In this document: positions 2,693-39,370 of the stretch, one piece after another | Layout: each line of letters opens with the position of its first letter | How positions within the stretch are numbered: position 1 is the first letter of the stretch | Source of the DNA: Terriglobales bacterium | GTDB lineage: Bacteria; Acidobacteriota; Terriglobia; Terriglobales; SCQP01 | Assembly: GCA_050747905.1 (NCBI GenBank) | Contig: JBOGKQ010000003.1 | Span: 60,801-124,800 of the forward strand | Direction of reading: 5' to 3' | DNA length: 64,000 nt | Translations under genes and position numbers: made by a program | Notes under the pieces: generated by a model | Told to the model about the DNA's origin: nothing | Database searches by the model: none | The model's input: only the letters and a program-made list of their open reading frames with translations

Positions 2693-3562
2693 ATGCGGTT
2701 GCGCACGCTCTGGGAGACGTCCGTGAGGAGGCACCCGCCGGAGCTGCCGGACGCGTTGCGCGCTCTGTACGGCAGCGACCTCGTCTTCCCGGCCCAGCGC
2801 ACGCCCTACGTGTACGCCAATTTTGTGGCCAGCGCCGACGGCGTGGTCAGTTTTGGGGTGCGCGGCCAGGCGGGCGGAGGCACGATCAGCGGCGGCAACC
2901 TCGGCGACCGGCTGGGCATGGCGCTGCTGCGGGCGCGCGCCGACGCCGTGCTGGTGGGCGCCCGCACGTTGCGCGCGGCGGGAAGGCCGGCGCTGTGGGA
3001 TCCGGCCTACACCTTTCCGGCCGCCACAACGGCACTCCGTGCCTGGCGGCGGGCCCGCGGACTCACGGATTCGCCGCTGCTGACGGTGGTCACTGCCAGC
3101 GGACGGTTGCCGCTCGACTACGAAGTCTTTCACGCGCGCGGAGCGCGCGTGCTCGTGCTCAGCTCGGACGGGGGTGCGGCCCGGTTGCGGGCCGAGGCGC
3201 GGCGGCGCGGATTGAAGCTGGAGCTGCGGGTGCTGGCGCCGGTGGCGGGGCGCATGCCGGTCCGAGCCATGCTGCGGCTGCTGGCGCGCGAGTTCGGGGT
3301 GCGGATGCTGCTGTGTGAGGGTGGGCCGACCCTGTTCGGAGAGCTGGCGCGCGCAGGGCTGGTGCAGGAGCTGTTTTTGTCGGTGGCGCCGGTGCTGGCC
3401 GGCCGCAATGGGCGGGCACCGCGCCCGGGCCCCATCGTCGGCGCCGCCTTCGCGCCCGCAAGGGCGCCACGCATGCGGCTGCTCAGCGTCAAGGCACACG
3501 GCGACCTGCTGCTGCTGCGTTACCGGATTACCGGTTCCGGCGCAAGGCCGAGTTCGCGCTGA
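2693..3562 (+). CDS. RibD C-terminal/dihydrofolate reductase family protein
   Basis: YVYANFVASADG, LRARADAVLVGARTLR, LLCEGGPTLFG, ELFLSVAPVL motifs. Confidence 0.8.
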   Translation: MRLRTLWETSVRRHPPELPDALRALYGSDLVFPAQRTPYVYANFVASADGVVSFGVRGQAGGGTISGGNLGDRLGMALLRARADAVLVGARTLRAAGRPALWDPAYTFPAATTALRAWRRARGLTDSPLLTVVTASGRLPLDYEVFHARGARVLVLSSDGGAARLRAEARRRGLKLELRVLAPVAGRMPVRAMLRLLAREFGVRMLLCEGGPTLFGELARAGLVQELFLSVAPVLAGRNGRAPRPGPIVGAAFAPARAPRMRLLSVKAHGDLLLLRYRITGSGARPSSR

Positions 3563-9834: not shown

Positions 9835-10055
9835 GCTTGCCTCCTTACTTCAGTTCCCAACACAAAACTCAGCTCCCGATTTGGCGTGGCACGCTTTGCC
9901 CCACGTGCGTGCGACTTTTCTTGGAGAAAAGCCGCATTCGAAATGGCCGCCTGATTACAACAGGTCTGGACCCGCCCTAGAGCTGCCGATGTTGTATACG
10001 CTCCCACATTCTGGCAAGTCCGCAGCAGCGCCGCAAGCGCAAACCCCTCTTTATT

Positions 10056-17484: not shown

Positions 17485-17533
17485 CCCGGCGTGAGAGCAA
17501 ACCCAGCGTTGGTGTAGCGCGCTGGGGGCAAGC

Positions 17534-17567
17534 GCTTGCGGCTTTTCCTGATGTCAAAGCCGCAAGC
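17534..17567. terminator. 12-bp perfect hairpin between convergent pckA and kinase genes; likely bidirectional terminator
   Basis: GCTTGCGGCTTT-N10-AAAGCCGCAAGC. Confidence 0.65.
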
Positions 17568-17597
17568 CGAGCGTTCCGCCGTGCTCCTGGTTTTGCT

Positions 17598-34989: not shown

Positions 34990-35766
34990 ATGGCAGACGA
35001 GATGCGGGGCAAATCCGTACTGGTGATGGGCATTGCCAACCGCTGGAGTCTGGCGTATGCCATCGCCCAAGCACTGGCGCAGGTGGAGGTACGGCTGCTG
35101 CTGACCTACCAGGCAGAGCGGGCGAGGAAGGCAGTCGAGGATTTGGGCCAGGCACTCGGCGCGGCCCATATCTATCCCTGCGACGTCGGCCAGGACGGCT
35201 CGATCGCAGAGCTGTTCGCGGCGATTGGCCGTGACCTGTCGGGCGCGCCGCTGGATGGCGTGGTGCATAGCATTGCCTTTGCCCAAAAGGAGGATCTGGA
35301 CCGGCCGTTTCACGCCACCAGCCGTGCTGGCTTTACCCAAGCGCTCGATATCAGCGCTTTTTCACTGGCGGCGGTGGCGCATCAGGCGGCGCCGCTGATG
35401 ACCGCCGGTGGGGGCATCGTTACGTTGAGCTACCTGGGCGCGCAACGGGTGGTGACGAACTACAACGTTATGGGGGTGGCCAAGGCGGCGCTGGAGGCGG
35501 CAGTGCGGTATCTGGCCAGTGAACTGGGGCCGCAGCACATCCGCGTGAACGCAATTTCGGCGGGGCCGGTAAAGACGGTCTCGGCGCGGGCCATCAAGGA
35601 TTTCAATTCGATGCTCGACCACGTGGCTCAGCGCGCGCCCCTGCGGCGCGTCACCGATCCGGCCGAAGTTGCCTCGACGGCGATGTTTCTGCTCTCCCCG
35701 GGAGGGCGCGGCATCACCGGCGACACGTTGTTCGTGGACAGCGGCTACCATATTCTGGGGTTTTAG
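34990..35766 (+). CDS. fabI: Enoyl-ACP reductase
   Basis: GIANRWSLA, HSIAFA, YNVMGVAKAALE. Confidence 0.93.
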   Translation: MADEMRGKSVLVMGIANRWSLAYAIAQALAQVEVRLLLTYQAERARKAVEDLGQALGAAHIYPCDVGQDGSIAELFAAIGRDLSGAPLDGVVHSIAFAQKEDLDRPFHATSRAGFTQALDISAFSLAAVAHQAAPLMTAGGGIVTLSYLGAQRVVTNYNVMGVAKAALEAAVRYLASELGPQHIRVNAISAGPVKTVSARAIKDFNSMLDHVAQRAPLRRVTDPAEVASTAMFLLSPGGRGITGDTLFVDSGYHILGF

Positions 35767-35767
35767 T

Positions 35768-37099
35768 GTGAGCCGCGTGGCAGTAATCGGCGGTGGACTG
35801 GCGGGGCCAGAGGCGGCCTGGCAGCTCGCCCAGCGAGGCCTCGAGGTCGAGTTGTGGGAAATGCGGCCGCGGGTGTCCACGCCGGCGCACCAGACGGGGG
35901 CGCTGGGCGAGTTGGTGTGCTCGAACTCGCTCAAGTCGGAGGCGAAAAACTCAGCTCCGTGGCTGCTCAAAGAAGAACTGCGGCGGGGCGGATCGCTACT
36001 GCTGGATTGCGCTCGCGCCAGCGCCGTGCCCGGCGGACAGGCATTGACCGTGGACCGGGCGCGTTTTTCGGCGGAGATCGAGGCCGCGCTGACACGACAC
36101 CCGTGCGTGCAGCTGCGGCGCGAGGAGGCCACCGCTCTGCCCGTGCCAGGGGCGGCCGCGACCATCCTGGCCAGCGGTCCGCTTACTTCGGCCCCGCTTA
36201 TGCAGACCTTGGCGGCGGTGACCGGGCGCCAACACTTGTACTTTTACGACGCCATCAGCCCGATCGTTGAGTCCGACAGCCTGAACTACGGCCGAATGTA
36301 CGCCGGCTCGCGTTGGGGCCACGGCGGCGCGCAGGACTTTTGGAACTGCCCGCTCGATCGGGTGGAATACGAGCGTTTTTATGCAGCGTTGCAGGCTGCC
36401 GACAGTTACCCGTGGCACGGGTTCGAGGAGCCACGCTATTTTGAGGCGTGCCTGCCGCTGGAGGAGCTGGCGCGGCGCGGGCCCGACACGCTGCGCTTCG
36501 GCCCAATGAAACCGGTTGGGCTACCGGACCCCCACACCGGGCGGACGCCACACGCGGTAGTGCAGTTGCGGCGCGAGAACCTGCGTGCCGACAGCTTCAA
36601 CTTGGTAGGCTTTCAAAACCATCTGCGTTTTGGCGCGCAGGCGGAAGTCTTGCGGCTCATCCCTGGCTTGGAGTCGGCACGGTTTTTGCGCTTCGGACAG
36701 GTGCACCGAAACAGCTATGTGGCCGGGCCCGCGGTGCTCGACCAGCGCCTGCGGCTGCGCCGGAACACGCAAATTTGGGTGGCGGGACAGTTGTGCGGCA
36801 CCGAAGGCTACATCGAGGCCATCGCCACCGGGTGGCTGGCAGGCCGATTCGCCGCCGCGGCGCTGGCCGGCCAGGAACTCGAACCGCCGCCCCGGGAAAC
36901 GGCGCTGGGGGCGTTAGTGCATTACATAGCGCACTCCGCCGCTGAAGGTTACACGCCCGCCAACATCACCTTTGATCTGCTGCCGCCGCTGGCACAACAG
37001 GAGCGGGACCGGATGGACCGGCGCGCGCGCCAGTGCGCGCGCGCGCTGGCGGCGATGGAGGAATGGCTGGCGCAATCCCCGGAAGTGGTGCCCGCATGA
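35768..37099 (+). CDS. trmFO: tRNA (uracil-5-)-methyltransferase, folate/FAD-dependent
   Basis: GGGLAG.EAAWQ, ELVCSNS, FYDAISPI, GPMKPVGL. Confidence 0.93.
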   Translation: MSRVAVIGGGLAGPEAAWQLAQRGLEVELWEMRPRVSTPAHQTGALGELVCSNSLKSEAKNSAPWLLKEELRRGGSLLLDCARASAVPGGQALTVDRARFSAEIEAALTRHPCVQLRREEATALPVPGAAATILASGPLTSAPLMQTLAAVTGRQHLYFYDAISPIVESDSLNYGRMYAGSRWGHGGAQDFWNCPLDRVEYERFYAALQAADSYPWHGFEEPRYFEACLPLEELARRGPDTLRFGPMKPVGLPDPHTGRTPHAVVQLRRENLRADSFNLVGFQNHLRFGAQAEVLRLIPGLESARFLRFGQVHRNSYVAGPAVLDQRLRLRRNTQIWVAGQLCGTEGYIEAIATGWLAGRFAAAALAGQELEPPPRETALGALVHYIAHSAAEGYTPANITFDLLPPLAQQERDRMDRRARQCARALAAMEEWLAQSPEVVPA

Positions 37100-38097
37100 C
37101 GTTGCAGGCTGCGATTCAGGATTTTATCGAGCGCTATCAGGAGGGCGAGCGCAACGCCAGTCCCCACACGTTGCGCAATTACGCCACCGACTGCCGCCAA
37201 TTTGCCAGCTTTGCGGGCGCGACGGCGGAGCTGGGAACCATCCAGCGGACGCACATCCGCACCTTTCTCGCCGCCGGACATGAGCGTGGCGCGAGTCGGG
37301 CGACACAGGCCCGCCACCTCGCCAGCCTGCGCTCGCTGTTCCGCTACTGCGCCCGCCAGGGCTGGATCCGCGACAATCCCGCGCGGTTGCTGAGCGCGCC
37401 GCGGCAAGCCAACCGCTTGCCTGACGTTCCGACCACGGAACAGGTGAACCGCTGGCTGGACCGCGAAGCGGCGCCGGCAGAAGCGGCGCCGTTCCCCGAG
37501 CGCGAGCGCGCCTTGCTGGAGTTGCTCTATGGCTGCGGCCTGCGGGTGAGCGAGGCGGTGGGCCTAGGTCTGCGCGACGTGGATTCGATCCGGGGGCGGC
37601 TGCGGGTACTGGGCAAGGGCCGCAAGCAGCGCCTGGTACCGTTTGGCCGCAAAGCGCAGGCGGCGCTTGAACGCTACCTAATGGCGCGCGCAGCGCTGCC
37701 ACCGCGGCCGGCGGACAATCCGGCACTGTTTTTGAACCGCCGCGGAACGCGGCTGACCACGCGCTCGGTGGCGCGCATTGTCAAGGCGAGCGCGCGGGCT
37801 TTCGGGCTGCCGTCCGATCTGCATCCCCACACCCTGCGTCACGCCTTCGCCTCGCATCTGCTGAGCGAGGGTGCCGATTTGCGCGCCATCCAGGAAATGC
37901 TCGGCCACCGCTCTCTGGCGACCACGCAGCGCTACACGCGCACCGATATGCGGCAGCTTGCCGAGGTATACGACCGGACGCATCCGTTCGAGGCGGGGGC
38001 GCCCGGCTCCGCACTGATCCGCCGCCCGCTTCTCCCGGCCCGGCGCGGTTCCGAGGCTCAGGCCGGGCGCGCGGACTCGGATAAACTTAAACAATGA
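37096..38097 (+). CDS. xerC: Tyrosine recombinase XerC
   Basis: R..G.R, HPHTLRHAFASHLL, LGH..TTQRY; trmFO-xerC context. Confidence 0.85.
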   Translation: MTLQAAIQDFIERYQEGERNASPHTLRNYATDCRQFASFAGATAELGTIQRTHIRTFLAAGHERGASRATQARHLASLRSLFRYCARQGWIRDNPARLLSAPRQANRLPDVPTTEQVNRWLDREAAPAEAAPFPERERALLELLYGCGLRVSEAVGLGLRDVDSIRGRLRVLGKGRKQRLVPFGRKAQAALERYLMARAALPPRPADNPALFLNRRGTRLTTRSVARIVKASARAFGLPSDLHPHTLRHAFASHLLSEGADLRAIQEMLGHRSLATTQRYTRTDMRQLAEVYDRTHPFEAGAPGSALIRRPLLPARRGSEAQAGRADSDKLKQ

Positions 38098-38285
38098 GTG
38101 GCTCGATACTTTCCGTCCAGTGTCCCGAGTGCCAGCGGGTGTACACCATCTATCCGGGACCGGACGATTACATGCGATGCCTGATTACGCGCAAGTACGA
38201 AATGGAGTGCGACTACTGCGAGAAGGATCTGGTATTTCAAGTCGTCGGCGGAGCCAAGGCTCCGTTCACTACCGGCGGCACCTAG
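38094..38285 (+). CDS. 63-aa Zn-ribbon-like protein
   Basis: CPEC and CDYC pairs; ATGA overlap with xerC. Confidence 0.6.
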   Translation: MSGSILSVQCPECQRVYTIYPGPDDYMRCLITRKYEMECDYCEKDLVFQVVGGAKAPFTTGGT

Positions 38286-38377
38286 AACAGTTCCAGACTT
38301 GGTGTAACCCGCTCTGGGCGACCGTGGTACGGCTTTGGGGGGAGAAAAGCCGCATGCGCTTTTGTCCGCAGGGCCAC

Positions 38378-38656
38378 TCGCGGGGGGCGCGCCGCTTTGC
38401 GCCGTGGGCAAAATCGGCGCGAAGGGCTGCGAAATTCGGAACGGGCGAGCGTCCCAGCGAGCGCCCCCGGGGAAATACGCAGGCGCGGCCCCCGCGAGGC
38501 GCCGCGTCGGGTTGGGGCCAGGGGCCCCCAACCCCGCCCTGCGCACTCACAGCAGGGCGGGCAACCCGACGCGAGCATAAGCGGGGCGCGCGGCGCAATT
38601 CACCCGGTGCAGTTCCAGCAGGGCGGCGCAGCCGCGCTGGGGCCCGCGCCAACATC
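38378..38656 (+). repeat. Modular palindromic element, copy F (279 nt, opposite strand)
   Basis: Reverse complement of A/E with an extra 25-nt insert between GCGGCGCA direct repeats. Confidence 0.92.
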
Positions 38657-38677
38657 GGTTGGTCTGGAACTGCTCTA

Positions 38678-39370
38678 ATGCCGAGGCTGGCAGGCACGCT
38701 GCTGGCGTTGGGCCTGCTGGCGGCGGCGCAGTCGCCGTGGAAGCCGATCCGCGGCATCGGCGCGCGCCTGTGGCACGGAACCCGAGCGCTGCCGCGGGCG
38801 GCGGTGCGCGACTGGCGGCTTACGGTTCCGCTCGTGGCGGCCACGGGCGCCCTGATCGCCTGGGGTGACGCGCCCCTGTCCGGGCGGATTCAGTCTCCGG
38901 CGCTGGAGCGCACCAGCAGGGTTTGGTCGGACCGGGGGCTGCTGGAAATCGAGCCCGCCTTCGCGCTATTGTCGGTGGCGCTGGAGGATCATTGCCTGAT
39001 TTGCCCCTCCACCAGCCGCTTTGCCCTTGCGGCGATGATCACCGAGGGCTACACCACGGCGGCGGTCCAGGCGGTGAAGTACGTTGCCGGCCGGGAACGT
39101 CCCTACACTTCGCACGACGGTGACGGTGGATTCAATGAAGGCGGGCGCTCGTTTCCCTCGGGCCACGCGGCGGGCGCGTTTGCCCTGGCGGAGCTGCTGT
39201 ACCTTCACGATCCCGGCGCCAGCTGGGCCAACCGCGTCACCTTCGCGCTGGCAGGTGGAGTCACGGCGGCGCGCTTCACCGCCAAGGAACACTTCCCTTC
39301 CGACCTTCTGGCGGGCGCGACCCTGGGACTGCTCCTCGGCCGCTGCGCCCAGGCCTGTCCTAAAAGCTGA
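38678..39370 (+). CDS. PAP2-family phosphatase (alternative in-frame start at 38354 upstream of copy F)
   Basis: GRERP, SFPSGHA, RFTAKEHFPSD. Confidence 0.85.
   Translation: MPRLAGTLLALGLLAAAQSPWKPIRGIGARLWHGTRALPRAAVRDWRLTVPLVAATGALIAWGDAPLSGRIQSPALERTSRVWSDRGLLEIEPAFALLSVALEDHCLICPSTSRFALAAMITEGYTTAAVQAVKYVAGRERPYTSHDGDGGFNEGGRSFPSGHAAGAFALAELLYLHDPGASWANRVTFALAGGVTAARFTAKEHFPSDLLAGATLGLLLGRCAQACPKS

What the first reader, a model, noticed from the sequence alone, without database searches (positions are those of the whole stretch)
38341..38680. Copy F is a 279-nt (93-codon) stop-free in-frame insert ahead of the PAP2 signal peptide
Seen: GGAG at 38341 lies 9 nt before ATG 38354; the frame runs MRFCPQGH-[element: RRFAPWAKS..RAGARANI]-GWSGTALMPRLAGTLLAL without a stop into the PAP2 gene. 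Removing the element gives a short plausible N-terminus. Inference: second in-frame insertion giving a ~108-aa Arg/Gly/Pro-rich extension, or a shift of start to 38678.
Basis: partly seen in the sequence, partly recalled or inferred. Interest (0 to 1): 0.68.

Follow-up and report, generated by a model that had tools for sequence, protein, structure and literature searches.

The report
Nested repeats split a coupled gene junction
The "in-frame insert" is one junk-like repeat nested inside a second small mobile repeat, and the pair landed exactly where a small gene's stop codon overlapped the PAP2 phosphatase gene's start. The PAP2 protein most likely still begins at its old start codon (38678), so this is an ordinary, if tidy, case of repeat insertion.

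Summary
GGAG lies at 38341-44 and ATG at 38354. A 279-nt repeat copy occupies 38378-38656, and the frame stays open into the PAP2 gene.

The interpretation mostly fails.
- Openness is not special. Three of six frames across this 73% GC stretch are stop-free, with a chance probability of 0.16-0.39.
- What remains after removing copy F is not a native N-terminus. It is a second repeat, a TA-flanked MITE with terminal inverted repeats (38285-38675, about 31-40 loci in the genome). Its hairpin supplies both the GGAG and the ATG.
- Removing both repeats restores ...ACC TAATG CCG. In that junction the stop codon of the small zinc-ribbon gene overlaps PAP2 ATG 38678.
- Relatives show the same coupling. 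The closest one has a TAGTG overlap and another has GTGA. Orthologue signal peptides align with MPRLAGTLLAL.
- The 108-codon extension has non-coding codon usage (-0.37 against +0.28 bits per codon).
- Genome-wide, the element shows no bias in orientation, length mod 3, or reading register.

The verdict is an intercistronic nested repeat insertion with the PAP2 start at 38678. Translation from 38354 cannot be excluded without expression data. A relative does carry a 90-nt form of the same element in frame inside its PAP2 gene.

The parts
37033..38097 (+). XerC/D-like tyrosine recombinase gene. It is an upstream member of the operon and overlaps the next gene by 4 nt.
   Evidence: Pfam Phage_integrase, E 5e-43. 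The same gene order occurs in relatives.
38094..38285 (+). 63-aa zinc-ribbon-like small ORF, conserved in the genus. Its present stop codon TAG (38283-85) is TA from the target duplication plus the first base (G) of the MITE.
   Evidence: ORF. Orthologues end at the same ...TTGGT* residue. It is called as a 63-aa gene in relatives and in the NCBI record of this genome.
38283..38284 (.). Left TA of the inferred TA target-site duplication of MITE-2.
   Evidence: TA flanks both ends of most MITE-2 copies.
38285..38377 (+). Left part of MITE-2. The terminal inverted repeat GAACAGTTCCAGAC is at 38285-98. The ATG 38354 lies 2 nt after the stem.
   Evidence: nhmmer against the MITE-2 profile: C3:99086-99178, model positions 2-94, E 1.3e-17. 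Exact 25-nt matches to the TIR region occur at five other loci.
38378..38656 (+). Copy F of the abundant modular hairpin repeat ('element-1'), 279 nt, nested inside MITE-2.
   Evidence: 536 blastn HSPs in 344 loci in the 3.3-Mb assembly. Boundaries come from the 17-copy alignment. The empty site is seen in an intact MITE-2 copy.
38657..38675 (+). Right end of MITE-2, with the terminal inverted repeat GTCTGGAACTGCTC at 38662-75.
   Evidence: Alignment with other copies. In the RNA fold, 38283-98 pairs with 38662-77 at 15 of 16 positions.
38676..38677 (.). Right TA of the target-site duplication, directly before ATG 38678.
38678..39370 (+). PAP2-family phosphatase gene (230 aa). The signal peptide MPRLAGTLLALGLLAAAQ is encoded at 38678-38731.
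   Evidence: Pfam PAP2, E 1.4e-14 and 54 bits against a cut-off of 27. The 230-aa product is the one on record for this genome. The N-terminus aligns with orthologue signal peptides. Codon LLR is +0.28 per codon.

Best explanation
The 392-nt spacer between the small zinc-ribbon gene and the PAP2 gene is built entirely from two nested non-coding repeats. First, a TA-targeting MITE of about 112 nt with terminal inverted repeats (MITE-2) inserted at the TA of an overlapping stop/start junction (...ACC TAATG CCG...). This split the stop of the zinc-ribbon gene from the ATG of PAP2. Later, a 279-nt copy (F) of the genus-wide modular hairpin repeat (element-1) inserted into that MITE. PAP2 keeps its ancestral start codon at 38678 and its ordinary short signal peptide. 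The repeats are transcribed as an intercistronic, strongly folded RNA within the trmFO-xerC-ZnR-PAP2 operon. The open frame from ATG 38354 is a by-product of high G+C content and of a hairpin motif carried by the MITE. It is not a protein extension. Shown here: the nesting, the boundaries, the TA flanks, the orthologue starts, the non-coding codon usage, and the absence of genome-wide frame or orientation bias. Inferred: the order of the two insertions, the TAATG ancestor, co-transcription, and use of ATG 38678.
For: (1) MITE-2 identity. nhmmer gives E 1.3e-17 for 38286-38378. The TIRs GAACAGTTCCAGAC and GTCTGGAACTGCTC are each flanked by TA, as in most other copies. (2) An intact MITE-2 copy (C1:60708-60812) reads GGGCCAC|GGCTGG where copy F sits. 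Seven of 31 TIR-bearing MITE-2 loci abut or contain element-1, against about 2.5% expected by chance. (3) Removing both repeats and one TA gives TAATG. The closest relative (72% identical PAP2, four contigs) has ZnR at 2810..3001 and PAP2 starting at 3001, an overlap of TAGTG. G014 has a GTGA overlap. L005 has a stop two codons before M-RRFISSLLLL, and L004 starts MIRLRRAAAALAL. (4) In the alignment of 15 orthologues, the signal peptides align with MPRLAGTLLAL and no complete orthologue carries an extension of this kind (the partial record P0013 has an unrelated open upstream stretch). (5) Codon log-likelihood is -0.37 per codon for 38354-38677 against +0.28 for PAP2. GC2 exceeds GC3 in the extension, the reverse of the coding pattern. 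(6) A stop-free frame is expected by chance with P 0.16-0.39, and 3 of 6 frames are open. (7) Genome-wide, paired copies have lengths mod 3 of 27/21/21, and 44 of 68 have non-coding DNA on both sides. Flank orientation is 41 against 54 at the right end and 37 against 29 at the left end. The reading register with downstream genes is 8/11/16, which by my own chi-square calculation from these counts is about 2.8 (df 2), not significant. (8) The GGAG and the ATG are repeat-borne. Other MITE-2 copies have CACGCG, CAAGCC or CATTCG at this site, and the sister MITE family has GCCGCATGCG as its consensus. (9) The database and NCBI records of this genome call the 230-aa protein. (10) The simple scan finds no promoter-like or terminator-like site in the spacer.
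Against: ATG 38678 has no clear Shine-Dalgarno sequence (only GGAA at -12 to -9). In the predicted fold it lies immediately 3' of a 16-bp stem formed by the MITE's inverted repeats. ATG 38354 has a better GGAG at the right distance, and its frame does run unbroken into PAP2, so some initiation there is possible. Orthologues also lack a Shine-Dalgarno sequence because they rely on stop/start overlap, and that overlap is lost here. The TAATG ancestor is a reconstruction, and no sister strain with the empty site was found. The gene callers' choice of 38678 is not independent biological evidence.
Confidence: 0.8

Rival explanations
1. Translation starts at ATG 38354 and gives a 338-aa precursor. 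Its 108-aa Arg-rich N-terminal tail, encoded by MITE-2 and element-1, stays in the cytoplasm ahead of the signal or anchor segment. The tail is either removed with the signal peptide or tolerated. This would be an RPE-like, harmless in-frame fusion.
For: GGAG lies 9 nt before the ATG, and the frame is unbroken into PAP2. In-frame residence of this element in coding sequence does occur in a relative: a 90-nt short form sits inside a PAP2 orthologue (L013/P0012) and is absent from a 95%-identical allele (L018). It is read in the same register, EHKRGARR..SRAGARA. An earlier follow-up in this scan reported a copy between a start codon and an export signal (not checked by me). An Arg-rich tail fits the positive-inside rule (established knowledge, used here as inference).
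Against: The ATG and the GGAG belong to a MITE hairpin motif found elsewhere in the genome. The extension has non-coding codon usage. Openness is expected by chance. The ancestral start at 38678 is intact and homologous to orthologue starts. There is no genome-wide register or length bias.
Confidence: 0.12
2. The double insertion uncoupled PAP2 from its operon and has effectively silenced it. The gene would be an expression-dead gene on its way to decay, so the question of its start is moot.
For: The stop/start overlap seen in relatives is lost. There is no Shine-Dalgarno sequence before 38678. The start lies next to a strong stem in a -240 kcal/mol structured spacer. No promoter-like site was found.
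Against: The ORF is intact, with positive coding potential (+0.28 per codon). The Pfam match is above threshold. The KX6RP, PSGH and RX5HX3D motifs are conserved in the alignment. A recent insertion would also leave these intact, so this argument is weak.
Confidence: 0.08

Closest known systems
Correia elements (CREE) of Neisseria and other TA-duplicating MITEs of the IS630/Tc1-mariner type
   Same: MITE-2 is about 110 nt, has terminal inverted repeats, is flanked by TA on both sides, has no ORF, and is present in tens of copies near gene ends. It would be co-transcribed with neighbouring genes, and its TIRs form a long RNA stem. Correia TIR stems in transcripts are known RNase III substrates (PMC10969869).
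   Different: The sequences are unrelated and the host phylum is different (Acidobacteriota, Terriglobales). No promoter-like site was found in it. No partner transposase was identified. RNase III processing was not tested.
REP/BIME mosaics of Enterobacteria, and clustered pneumococcal repeats (BOX/RUP/SPRITE) that insert into one another
   Same: Element-1 is a mosaic of optional hairpin cassettes between conserved ends. It is mostly extragenic, has hundreds of copies, is restricted to one genus and a few neighbours, and tends to sit in or next to other repeats. The clustering and nesting of pneumococcal repeats is described in PMC10969869.
   Different: The units are longer (109-482 nt between paired ends), the ends are asymmetric, and there is no evident TIR or target duplication. 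No RAYT or IS200-type Y1 transposase (PF01797) is detectable in this 97%-complete assembly.
Rickettsia palindromic elements (RPE)
   Same: These are palindromic repeats that can stay open in frame. A relative carries a 90-nt form inside its PAP2 coding sequence without breaking it. RPEs are the classic case of in-frame residence in genes (PMC10969869).
   Different: Copy F is not inside coding sequence. It lies between a stop codon and the ancestral start. The family as a whole is extragenic and shows no length or frame bias, whereas RPEs are frequently intragenic and encode a conserved peptide.

Membership tests
RPE-like in-frame coding insertion (for copy F) | The insert lies within sequence that is coding in orthologues. 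| tested here: not met
   The insert lies between the ZnR stop and the ancestral PAP2 start. Relatives have overlapping stop/start at this junction.
RPE-like in-frame coding insertion (for copy F) | The element family shows frame-preserving lengths or a preferred reading register. | tested here: not met
   Length mod 3 is 27/21/21 for 69 paired copies. The register with downstream genes is 8/11/16, not significant. A median of 4 of 6 frames are stop-free.
RPE-like in-frame coding insertion (for copy F) | The inserted segment is translated. | not testable with these tools
No proteomics or Ribo-seq data are available. Codon usage of the segment is non-coding.
MITE (for the host element MITE-2, 38285-38675) | Terminal inverted repeats. 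| tested here: met
   GAACAGTTCCAGAC pairs with GTCTGGAACTGCTC. The family consensus is GAGCAAAACCAGC...GCTGGTTTTGCTC.
MITE (for the host element MITE-2, 38285-38675) | Target-site duplication. | tested here: met
   TA lies on both sides in the window copy and in most copies with intact ends. A few copies have degenerate flanks.
MITE (for the host element MITE-2, 38285-38675) | Short, without an ORF, and multi-copy. | tested here: met
   About 105-112 nt. There are 40 distinct nhmmer loci, 31 of them with a TIR.
MITE (for the host element MITE-2, 38285-38675) | A cognate autonomous transposon with matching TIRs. | not tested
   I did not search for one. IS copies are often missing from draft assemblies from metagenomes.
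REP/BIME-RAYT or IS200/IS605-derived element (for element-1) | An associated Y1 (HUH) transposase in the genome. | tested here: not met
   PF01797 gave 0 matches in this genome, while the control genomes were positive.
REP/BIME-RAYT or IS200/IS605-derived element (for element-1) | Extragenic, palindromic modules in mosaic arrangements. | tested here: met
   The alignment shows optional hairpin cassettes. In 44 of 68 copies both flanks are non-coding.
PAP2 phosphatase superfamily (the downstream gene) | Pfam PF01569 match above the gathering score, and the KX6RP / PSGH / SRX5HX3D motifs. | tested here: met
   54.4 bits against a cut-off of 27.2. KYVAGRERP, FPSGH and RFTAKEHFPSD are invariant or nearly invariant in the orthologue alignment.

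The most novel reading that the evidence does not exclude
The MITE's inverted repeats may act as an RNA bridge that preserves translational coupling across the 392-nt insert. In the transcript, the 5' arm begins with the ZnR stop codon (UAG-AACAGUUCCAGAC). It pairs at 15 of 16 positions with the 3' arm, which ends two bases before the PAP2 AUG (GUCUGGAACUGCUCUA-AUG). A ribosome terminating at UAG would melt this stem. That would unmask the AUG while the compact folded insert keeps it nearby, so PAP2 translation would stay dependent on ZnR translation. This would resemble long-range coupling in RNA phages or a prokaryotic shunt. If so, TIR-bearing MITEs could land in overlapping stop/start junctions with little cost.
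Probability: 0.1. Interest if true: 0.6.

Novelty: new member of a known kind. Interest (0 to 1): 0.25.

Why it matters
The main value is for annotation. In G+C-rich genomes full of hairpin repeats, open frames run through repeats by chance, and repeat-borne ATG/GGAG motifs can mimic gene starts. The 230-aa PAP2 model is the right one here. The locus is also a clean natural example of two repeat families nesting at a translationally coupled junction. It offers a simple system to ask how an operon's last gene stays expressed after being separated from its coupling partner by 392 nt of structured RNA. The in-frame 90-nt copy inside a relative's PAP2 gene shows that this family can occasionally reside in coding sequence.

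Tried and rejected
- **Rfam.** A search of 38000-39000 at E <= 1 found nothing.
- **Promoter and terminator scan.** The consensus scan of 37900-38800 found nothing.
- **Partner transposase.** No Y1 transposase (PF01797) is present in this genome. Long left-end/right-end pairs of 0.9-5.5 kb exist, but I did not examine them for transposase genes.
- **MRF resemblance, considered and rejected.** 'MRF' at 38354 resembles the MRF or MMRF N-termini of orthologues P0002 and P0010. The 9-nt resemblance (ATGCGCTTT against GTGCGCTTC) lies inside sequence that aligns along its whole length with other MITE-2 copies (GCCGC-ATGCGCT-TTTGTCCGC-AGGGCCAC against GCCGC-CTGCGCT-CCGATCCGC-CGGGCCAC). The orthologues' MRF aligns positionally with MPR at 38678, directly after the ZnR stop.
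- **Systematic placement upstream of genes, considered and rejected.** The idea was that the element sits upstream of genes in a fixed orientation and register. Genome-wide counts show no such bias.
- **Hairpin as terminator, considered and rejected.** The T-run after the 38330-52 hairpin is 7 nt from the stem, and the scan does not call it.
- **Second contig.** The second contig carrying the identical PAP2 protein is the same genome (0 mismatches over the 2193 nt compared). A Logan contig breaks inside the repeat. No empty-site allele was found.

Full report
**What is in the sequence.** GGAG is at 38341-38344 and ATG at 38354-38356, 9 nt later. A single open frame runs from 38120 to the stop of the PAP2 gene at 39370. 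Between 38354 and 38677 there is no stop in that frame. The protein from 38678 onward is a PAP2-family phosphatase (Pfam PF01569, 54 bits against a cut-off of 27). Upstream lie a XerC-like recombinase gene (37033-38097) and a 63-aa zinc-ribbon-like ORF (38094-38285) that overlaps it by 4 nt.

**Is the open frame meaningful?** No. The stretch is 73% G+C. Three of its six frames are free of stops, and only four stop triplets occur on both strands together. Sequences of the same composition give a stop-free frame with probability 0.16 (shuffle) to 0.39 (first-order Markov). A codon-usage log-likelihood trained on this genome's long ORFs gives -0.37 bits per codon for 38354-38677 in the PAP2 frame. 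The PAP2 gene itself scores +0.28 and the small ORF +0.25. In the extension GC2 (0.80) exceeds GC3 (0.68), the reverse of the coding pattern seen in PAP2 (0.59 and 0.83). Between the upstream stop and 38678 the frame holds only two candidate starts, GTG 38324 and ATG 38354, and none inside the 279-nt element.

**The repeat family (element-1).** Copy F belongs to a very abundant family. There are 536 blastn HSPs in 344 loci, about 42 kb of a 3.3-Mb, 136-contig assembly, and 53 of these loci lie at contig ends. Profile searches find 176 left ends and 231 right ends. An alignment of 17 long copies fixes the boundaries. The left end reads (C)TC-GCGGGGGTCGCGCCGCTTTGCACCGTGGGCAAAATCG and the right end reads GCCGCGCTGGGGCCCGCGCCAACAT(T/C). 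Optional hairpin cassettes lie between them, and there is no evident terminal inverted repeat or target duplication. The family occurs in all 15 other genomes of the same genus and in three genomes of two other genera of the family. It is absent from the 16 genomes sampled from the sister family of the order. NCBI names relatives' proteins as from 'Terriglobales bacterium'. No Rfam family matches, and no Y1/HUH transposase (PF01797) is detectable in this genome.

**A second repeat surrounds copy F.** The DNA to the left of copy F (38286-38377) is not unique sequence. Its first 25 nt recur exactly at five other loci. An iterated nhmmer profile finds 40 loci, and the window's left part scores E 1.3e-17 over model positions 2-94. 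Intact copies are about 105-112 nt. They have terminal inverted repeats, with the consensus GAGCAAAACCAGC...GCTGGTTTTGCTC and a subfamily (G/A)AGCAGTTCCAGAC...GTCTGGAACTGCT. They also have a central hairpin, GCGGCTTTTC...GAAAAGCCGC, and TA on both sides. In the window, the left TIR is 38285-38298 and the right TIR is 38662-38675. TA lies at 38283-84 and again at 38676-77. An intact copy (C1:60708-60812) reads GGGCCAC|GGCTGG exactly where the window reads GGGCCAC-[279 nt]-GGTTGG. Copy F is therefore nested inside this MITE ('MITE-2'). Nesting is common: 7 of 31 TIR-bearing MITE-2 loci abut or contain element-1 DNA, against about 2.5% expected.

**The GGAG and the ATG are repeat-borne.** At that position other MITE-2 copies read CACGCG, CAAGCC, CCTGCG or CATTCG. 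A sister MITE family with different TIRs has GCCGCATGCG as its consensus. Both signals are features of the repeat, not of a gene start.

**The ancestral junction.** Taking out MITE-2 (with copy F) and one TA leaves ...GGC ACC TAATG CCG AGG... Here the stop of the small ORF overlaps the ATG of PAP2 by one base. Relatives support this reconstruction.
- The closest PAP2 orthologue (P0002, 72% identity, on four metagenomic contigs with the same gene order trmFO-xerC-ZnR-PAP2-OMP-flgL) has ZnR at 2810..3001 and PAP2 beginning at 3001. The junction reads ACG TAGTG CGC, and the gene pairs upstream overlap by 4 nt.
- Genome G014 has ACGTGAGG, a GTGA overlap.
- Genome G004 has the ZnR stop TAG followed at once by signal-peptide codons.
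- Where synteny differs, the orthologues still start with a short signal peptide. L005 has a stop two codons before MRRFISSLLLLGLVAGLATGAQA, and L004 starts MIRLRRAAAALALCAAPLCAGA.

In the alignment of 15 orthologues, all signal peptides align with MPRLAGTLLALGLLAAAQ-SPW, and no complete orthologue has anything like the 108-residue extension. The database entry and the NCBI record for this genome both carry the 230-aa product. An independent Logan assembly confirms the junction sequence.

**Genome-wide test of the in-frame idea.** If the family were shaped by residence in coding sequence, as RPEs are, lengths and registers should be biased. They are not.
- The 69 paired copies have lengths mod 3 of 27/21/21.
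- Of the 68 of these scored for flanks, 44 have non-coding DNA on both sides.
- Only four have same-strand coding flanks, and the one in the same frame contains a stop.
- The flank beyond the right end is coding away from the element in 41 cases and toward it in 54. For the left end the counts are 37 and 29.
- Among 35 right ends followed by a co-directional gene, the three registers occur 8, 11 and 16 times, which is not significant. In F's register, fewer than half (7 of 16) are open through the junction.

This contradicts an earlier first-reader note of a strand and frame bias that was based on the six copies in this window.

**How PAP2 is probably expressed now.** The simple scan finds no promoter-like or terminator-like site in the spacer. 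The simplest reading is therefore read-through transcription from the operon. As RNA, the spacer folds strongly (-240.6 kcal/mol, z = -4.4). The two MITE arms pair (38283-98 with 38662-77, 15 of 16 positions), which places the UAG stop opposite the CUA that precedes the AUG. Initiation at 38678 must then either be independent, with only a weak GGAA at -12 to -9, or be helped by ribosomes terminating at UAG and opening the stem. The second possibility is the speculative 'bridge' reading. I cannot exclude some initiation at ATG 38354. Its product would carry an Arg-rich cytoplasmic tail ahead of the signal peptide and might be harmless. I put that at about 0.12.

**A related observation.** One relative does carry this element in frame inside coding sequence. 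Protein P0012 (ENA contig, L013) has a 30-residue insert, CAARVCGLGLPSPGEHKRGARRSRAGARAH, between the PSGH and RX5HX3D motifs of its PAP2 orthologue. The 90 inserted bases are the short form of element-1 (central hairpin plus right end). They are absent from a 95%-identical allele (L018). They are read in the same register as in copy F. By the usual PAP2 topology (inference from the family, not tested), this loop is cytoplasmic, where an Arg-rich insert is tolerable. The RPE analogy therefore holds for that copy, but not for copy F.

**Comparison with known systems.** MITE-2 behaves like the TA-duplicating MITEs, of which Correia elements are the best-studied example (PMC10969869). Element-1 resembles REP/BIME-type mosaics and the clustered, mutually nesting pneumococcal repeats described in the same review. 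RPEs are the model for in-frame residence. None of the defining RPE features is met by copy F. The locus is a new member of known kinds, not a new mechanism.

**Limits.** No empty-site allele of this species was found. My gene-context statistics rest on a home-made codon-usage classifier, not on a curated annotation. No transposase partner was identified for either repeat.

Noticed in passing
L013:817-906 (ENA contig NODE_155877, protein P0012), compared with L018: A 90-nt short form of element-1 (central hairpin plus right end) is inserted in frame inside a PAP2 orthologue, between the PSGH and RX5HX3D motifs. It is absent from a 95%-identical allele and is read in the same register as copy F (EHKRGARR..SRAGARA). 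This is a genuine RPE-like intragenic copy, on a low-coverage contig.
   Followed up: partly
window 9870-9975 and 17495-17597 (C3:70670-70775, C3:78295-78397): Two further copies of the TA-flanked MITE-2 family lie in this window. The family has about 31-40 loci genome-wide, in two TIR subfamilies (GAGCAAAACCAGC and AGCAGTTCCAGAC). Its copies tend to lie just after gene ends.
   Followed up: partly
L022-L024 (G000 C4:110480-110720, C1:112200-112450, C9:88700-88950) and at least five more loci: A third MITE-like family of about 110 nt has TIRs GTCCTGAGTCAGA...TCTGACTCAGGAC flanked by CTAG. It shares the central hairpin GCGGCTTTTCC-GGTGAAAAGCCGCATGCG with MITE-2. The only Rfam match is sub-threshold and looks like chance (Na+ riboswitch, 22.6 bits against 40.5).
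   Followed up: partly
genome-wide (G000): Seven of 31 TIR-bearing MITE-2 loci are interrupted or abutted by element-1, against about 2.5% expected. Element-1 therefore lands preferentially in or beside other hairpin repeats. In addition, 53 of 344 element-1 loci lie within 300 nt of a contig end, so this family is a main cause of assembly breaks.
   Followed up: partly
L014:580-3690, and window 35669-39370: In the closest relative, trmFO-like (GIDA), xerC-like, the 63-aa zinc-ribbon ORF and PAP2 form a chain of overlapping stop/start junctions (1899/1902, 2810/2813, 3001). A tyrosine recombinase translationally coupled to a tiny zinc-ribbon protein and a PAP2 phosphatase is an unexplained conserved association in this genus.
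   Followed up: no
L002 reverse-complemented, positions 1425-1480 of the oriented locus (G014:C4): In G014 the PAP2 n-region downstream of the GTGA overlap consists of a roughly 7-nt tandem repeat (GGGGYCA, about 7 copies). It encodes MRGQGPGVRGLGPGARGQR ahead of the hydrophobic core (protein P0004). Gene callers disagree on the start in related sequences (P0007 starts at MLLLLAP). The N-terminal region of this gene is a recurrent site of repeat-driven variation.
   Followed up: no
window 38590-38630: The segment between the GCGGCGCA direct repeats in copy F corresponds to a cassette present in most long copies, TTCGCCCTGCGCAGTTCCAGCAGGGCGAA, a hairpin. Copy F carries a degenerate version. It is an ordinary optional module and not a capture specific to F.
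   Followed up: partly
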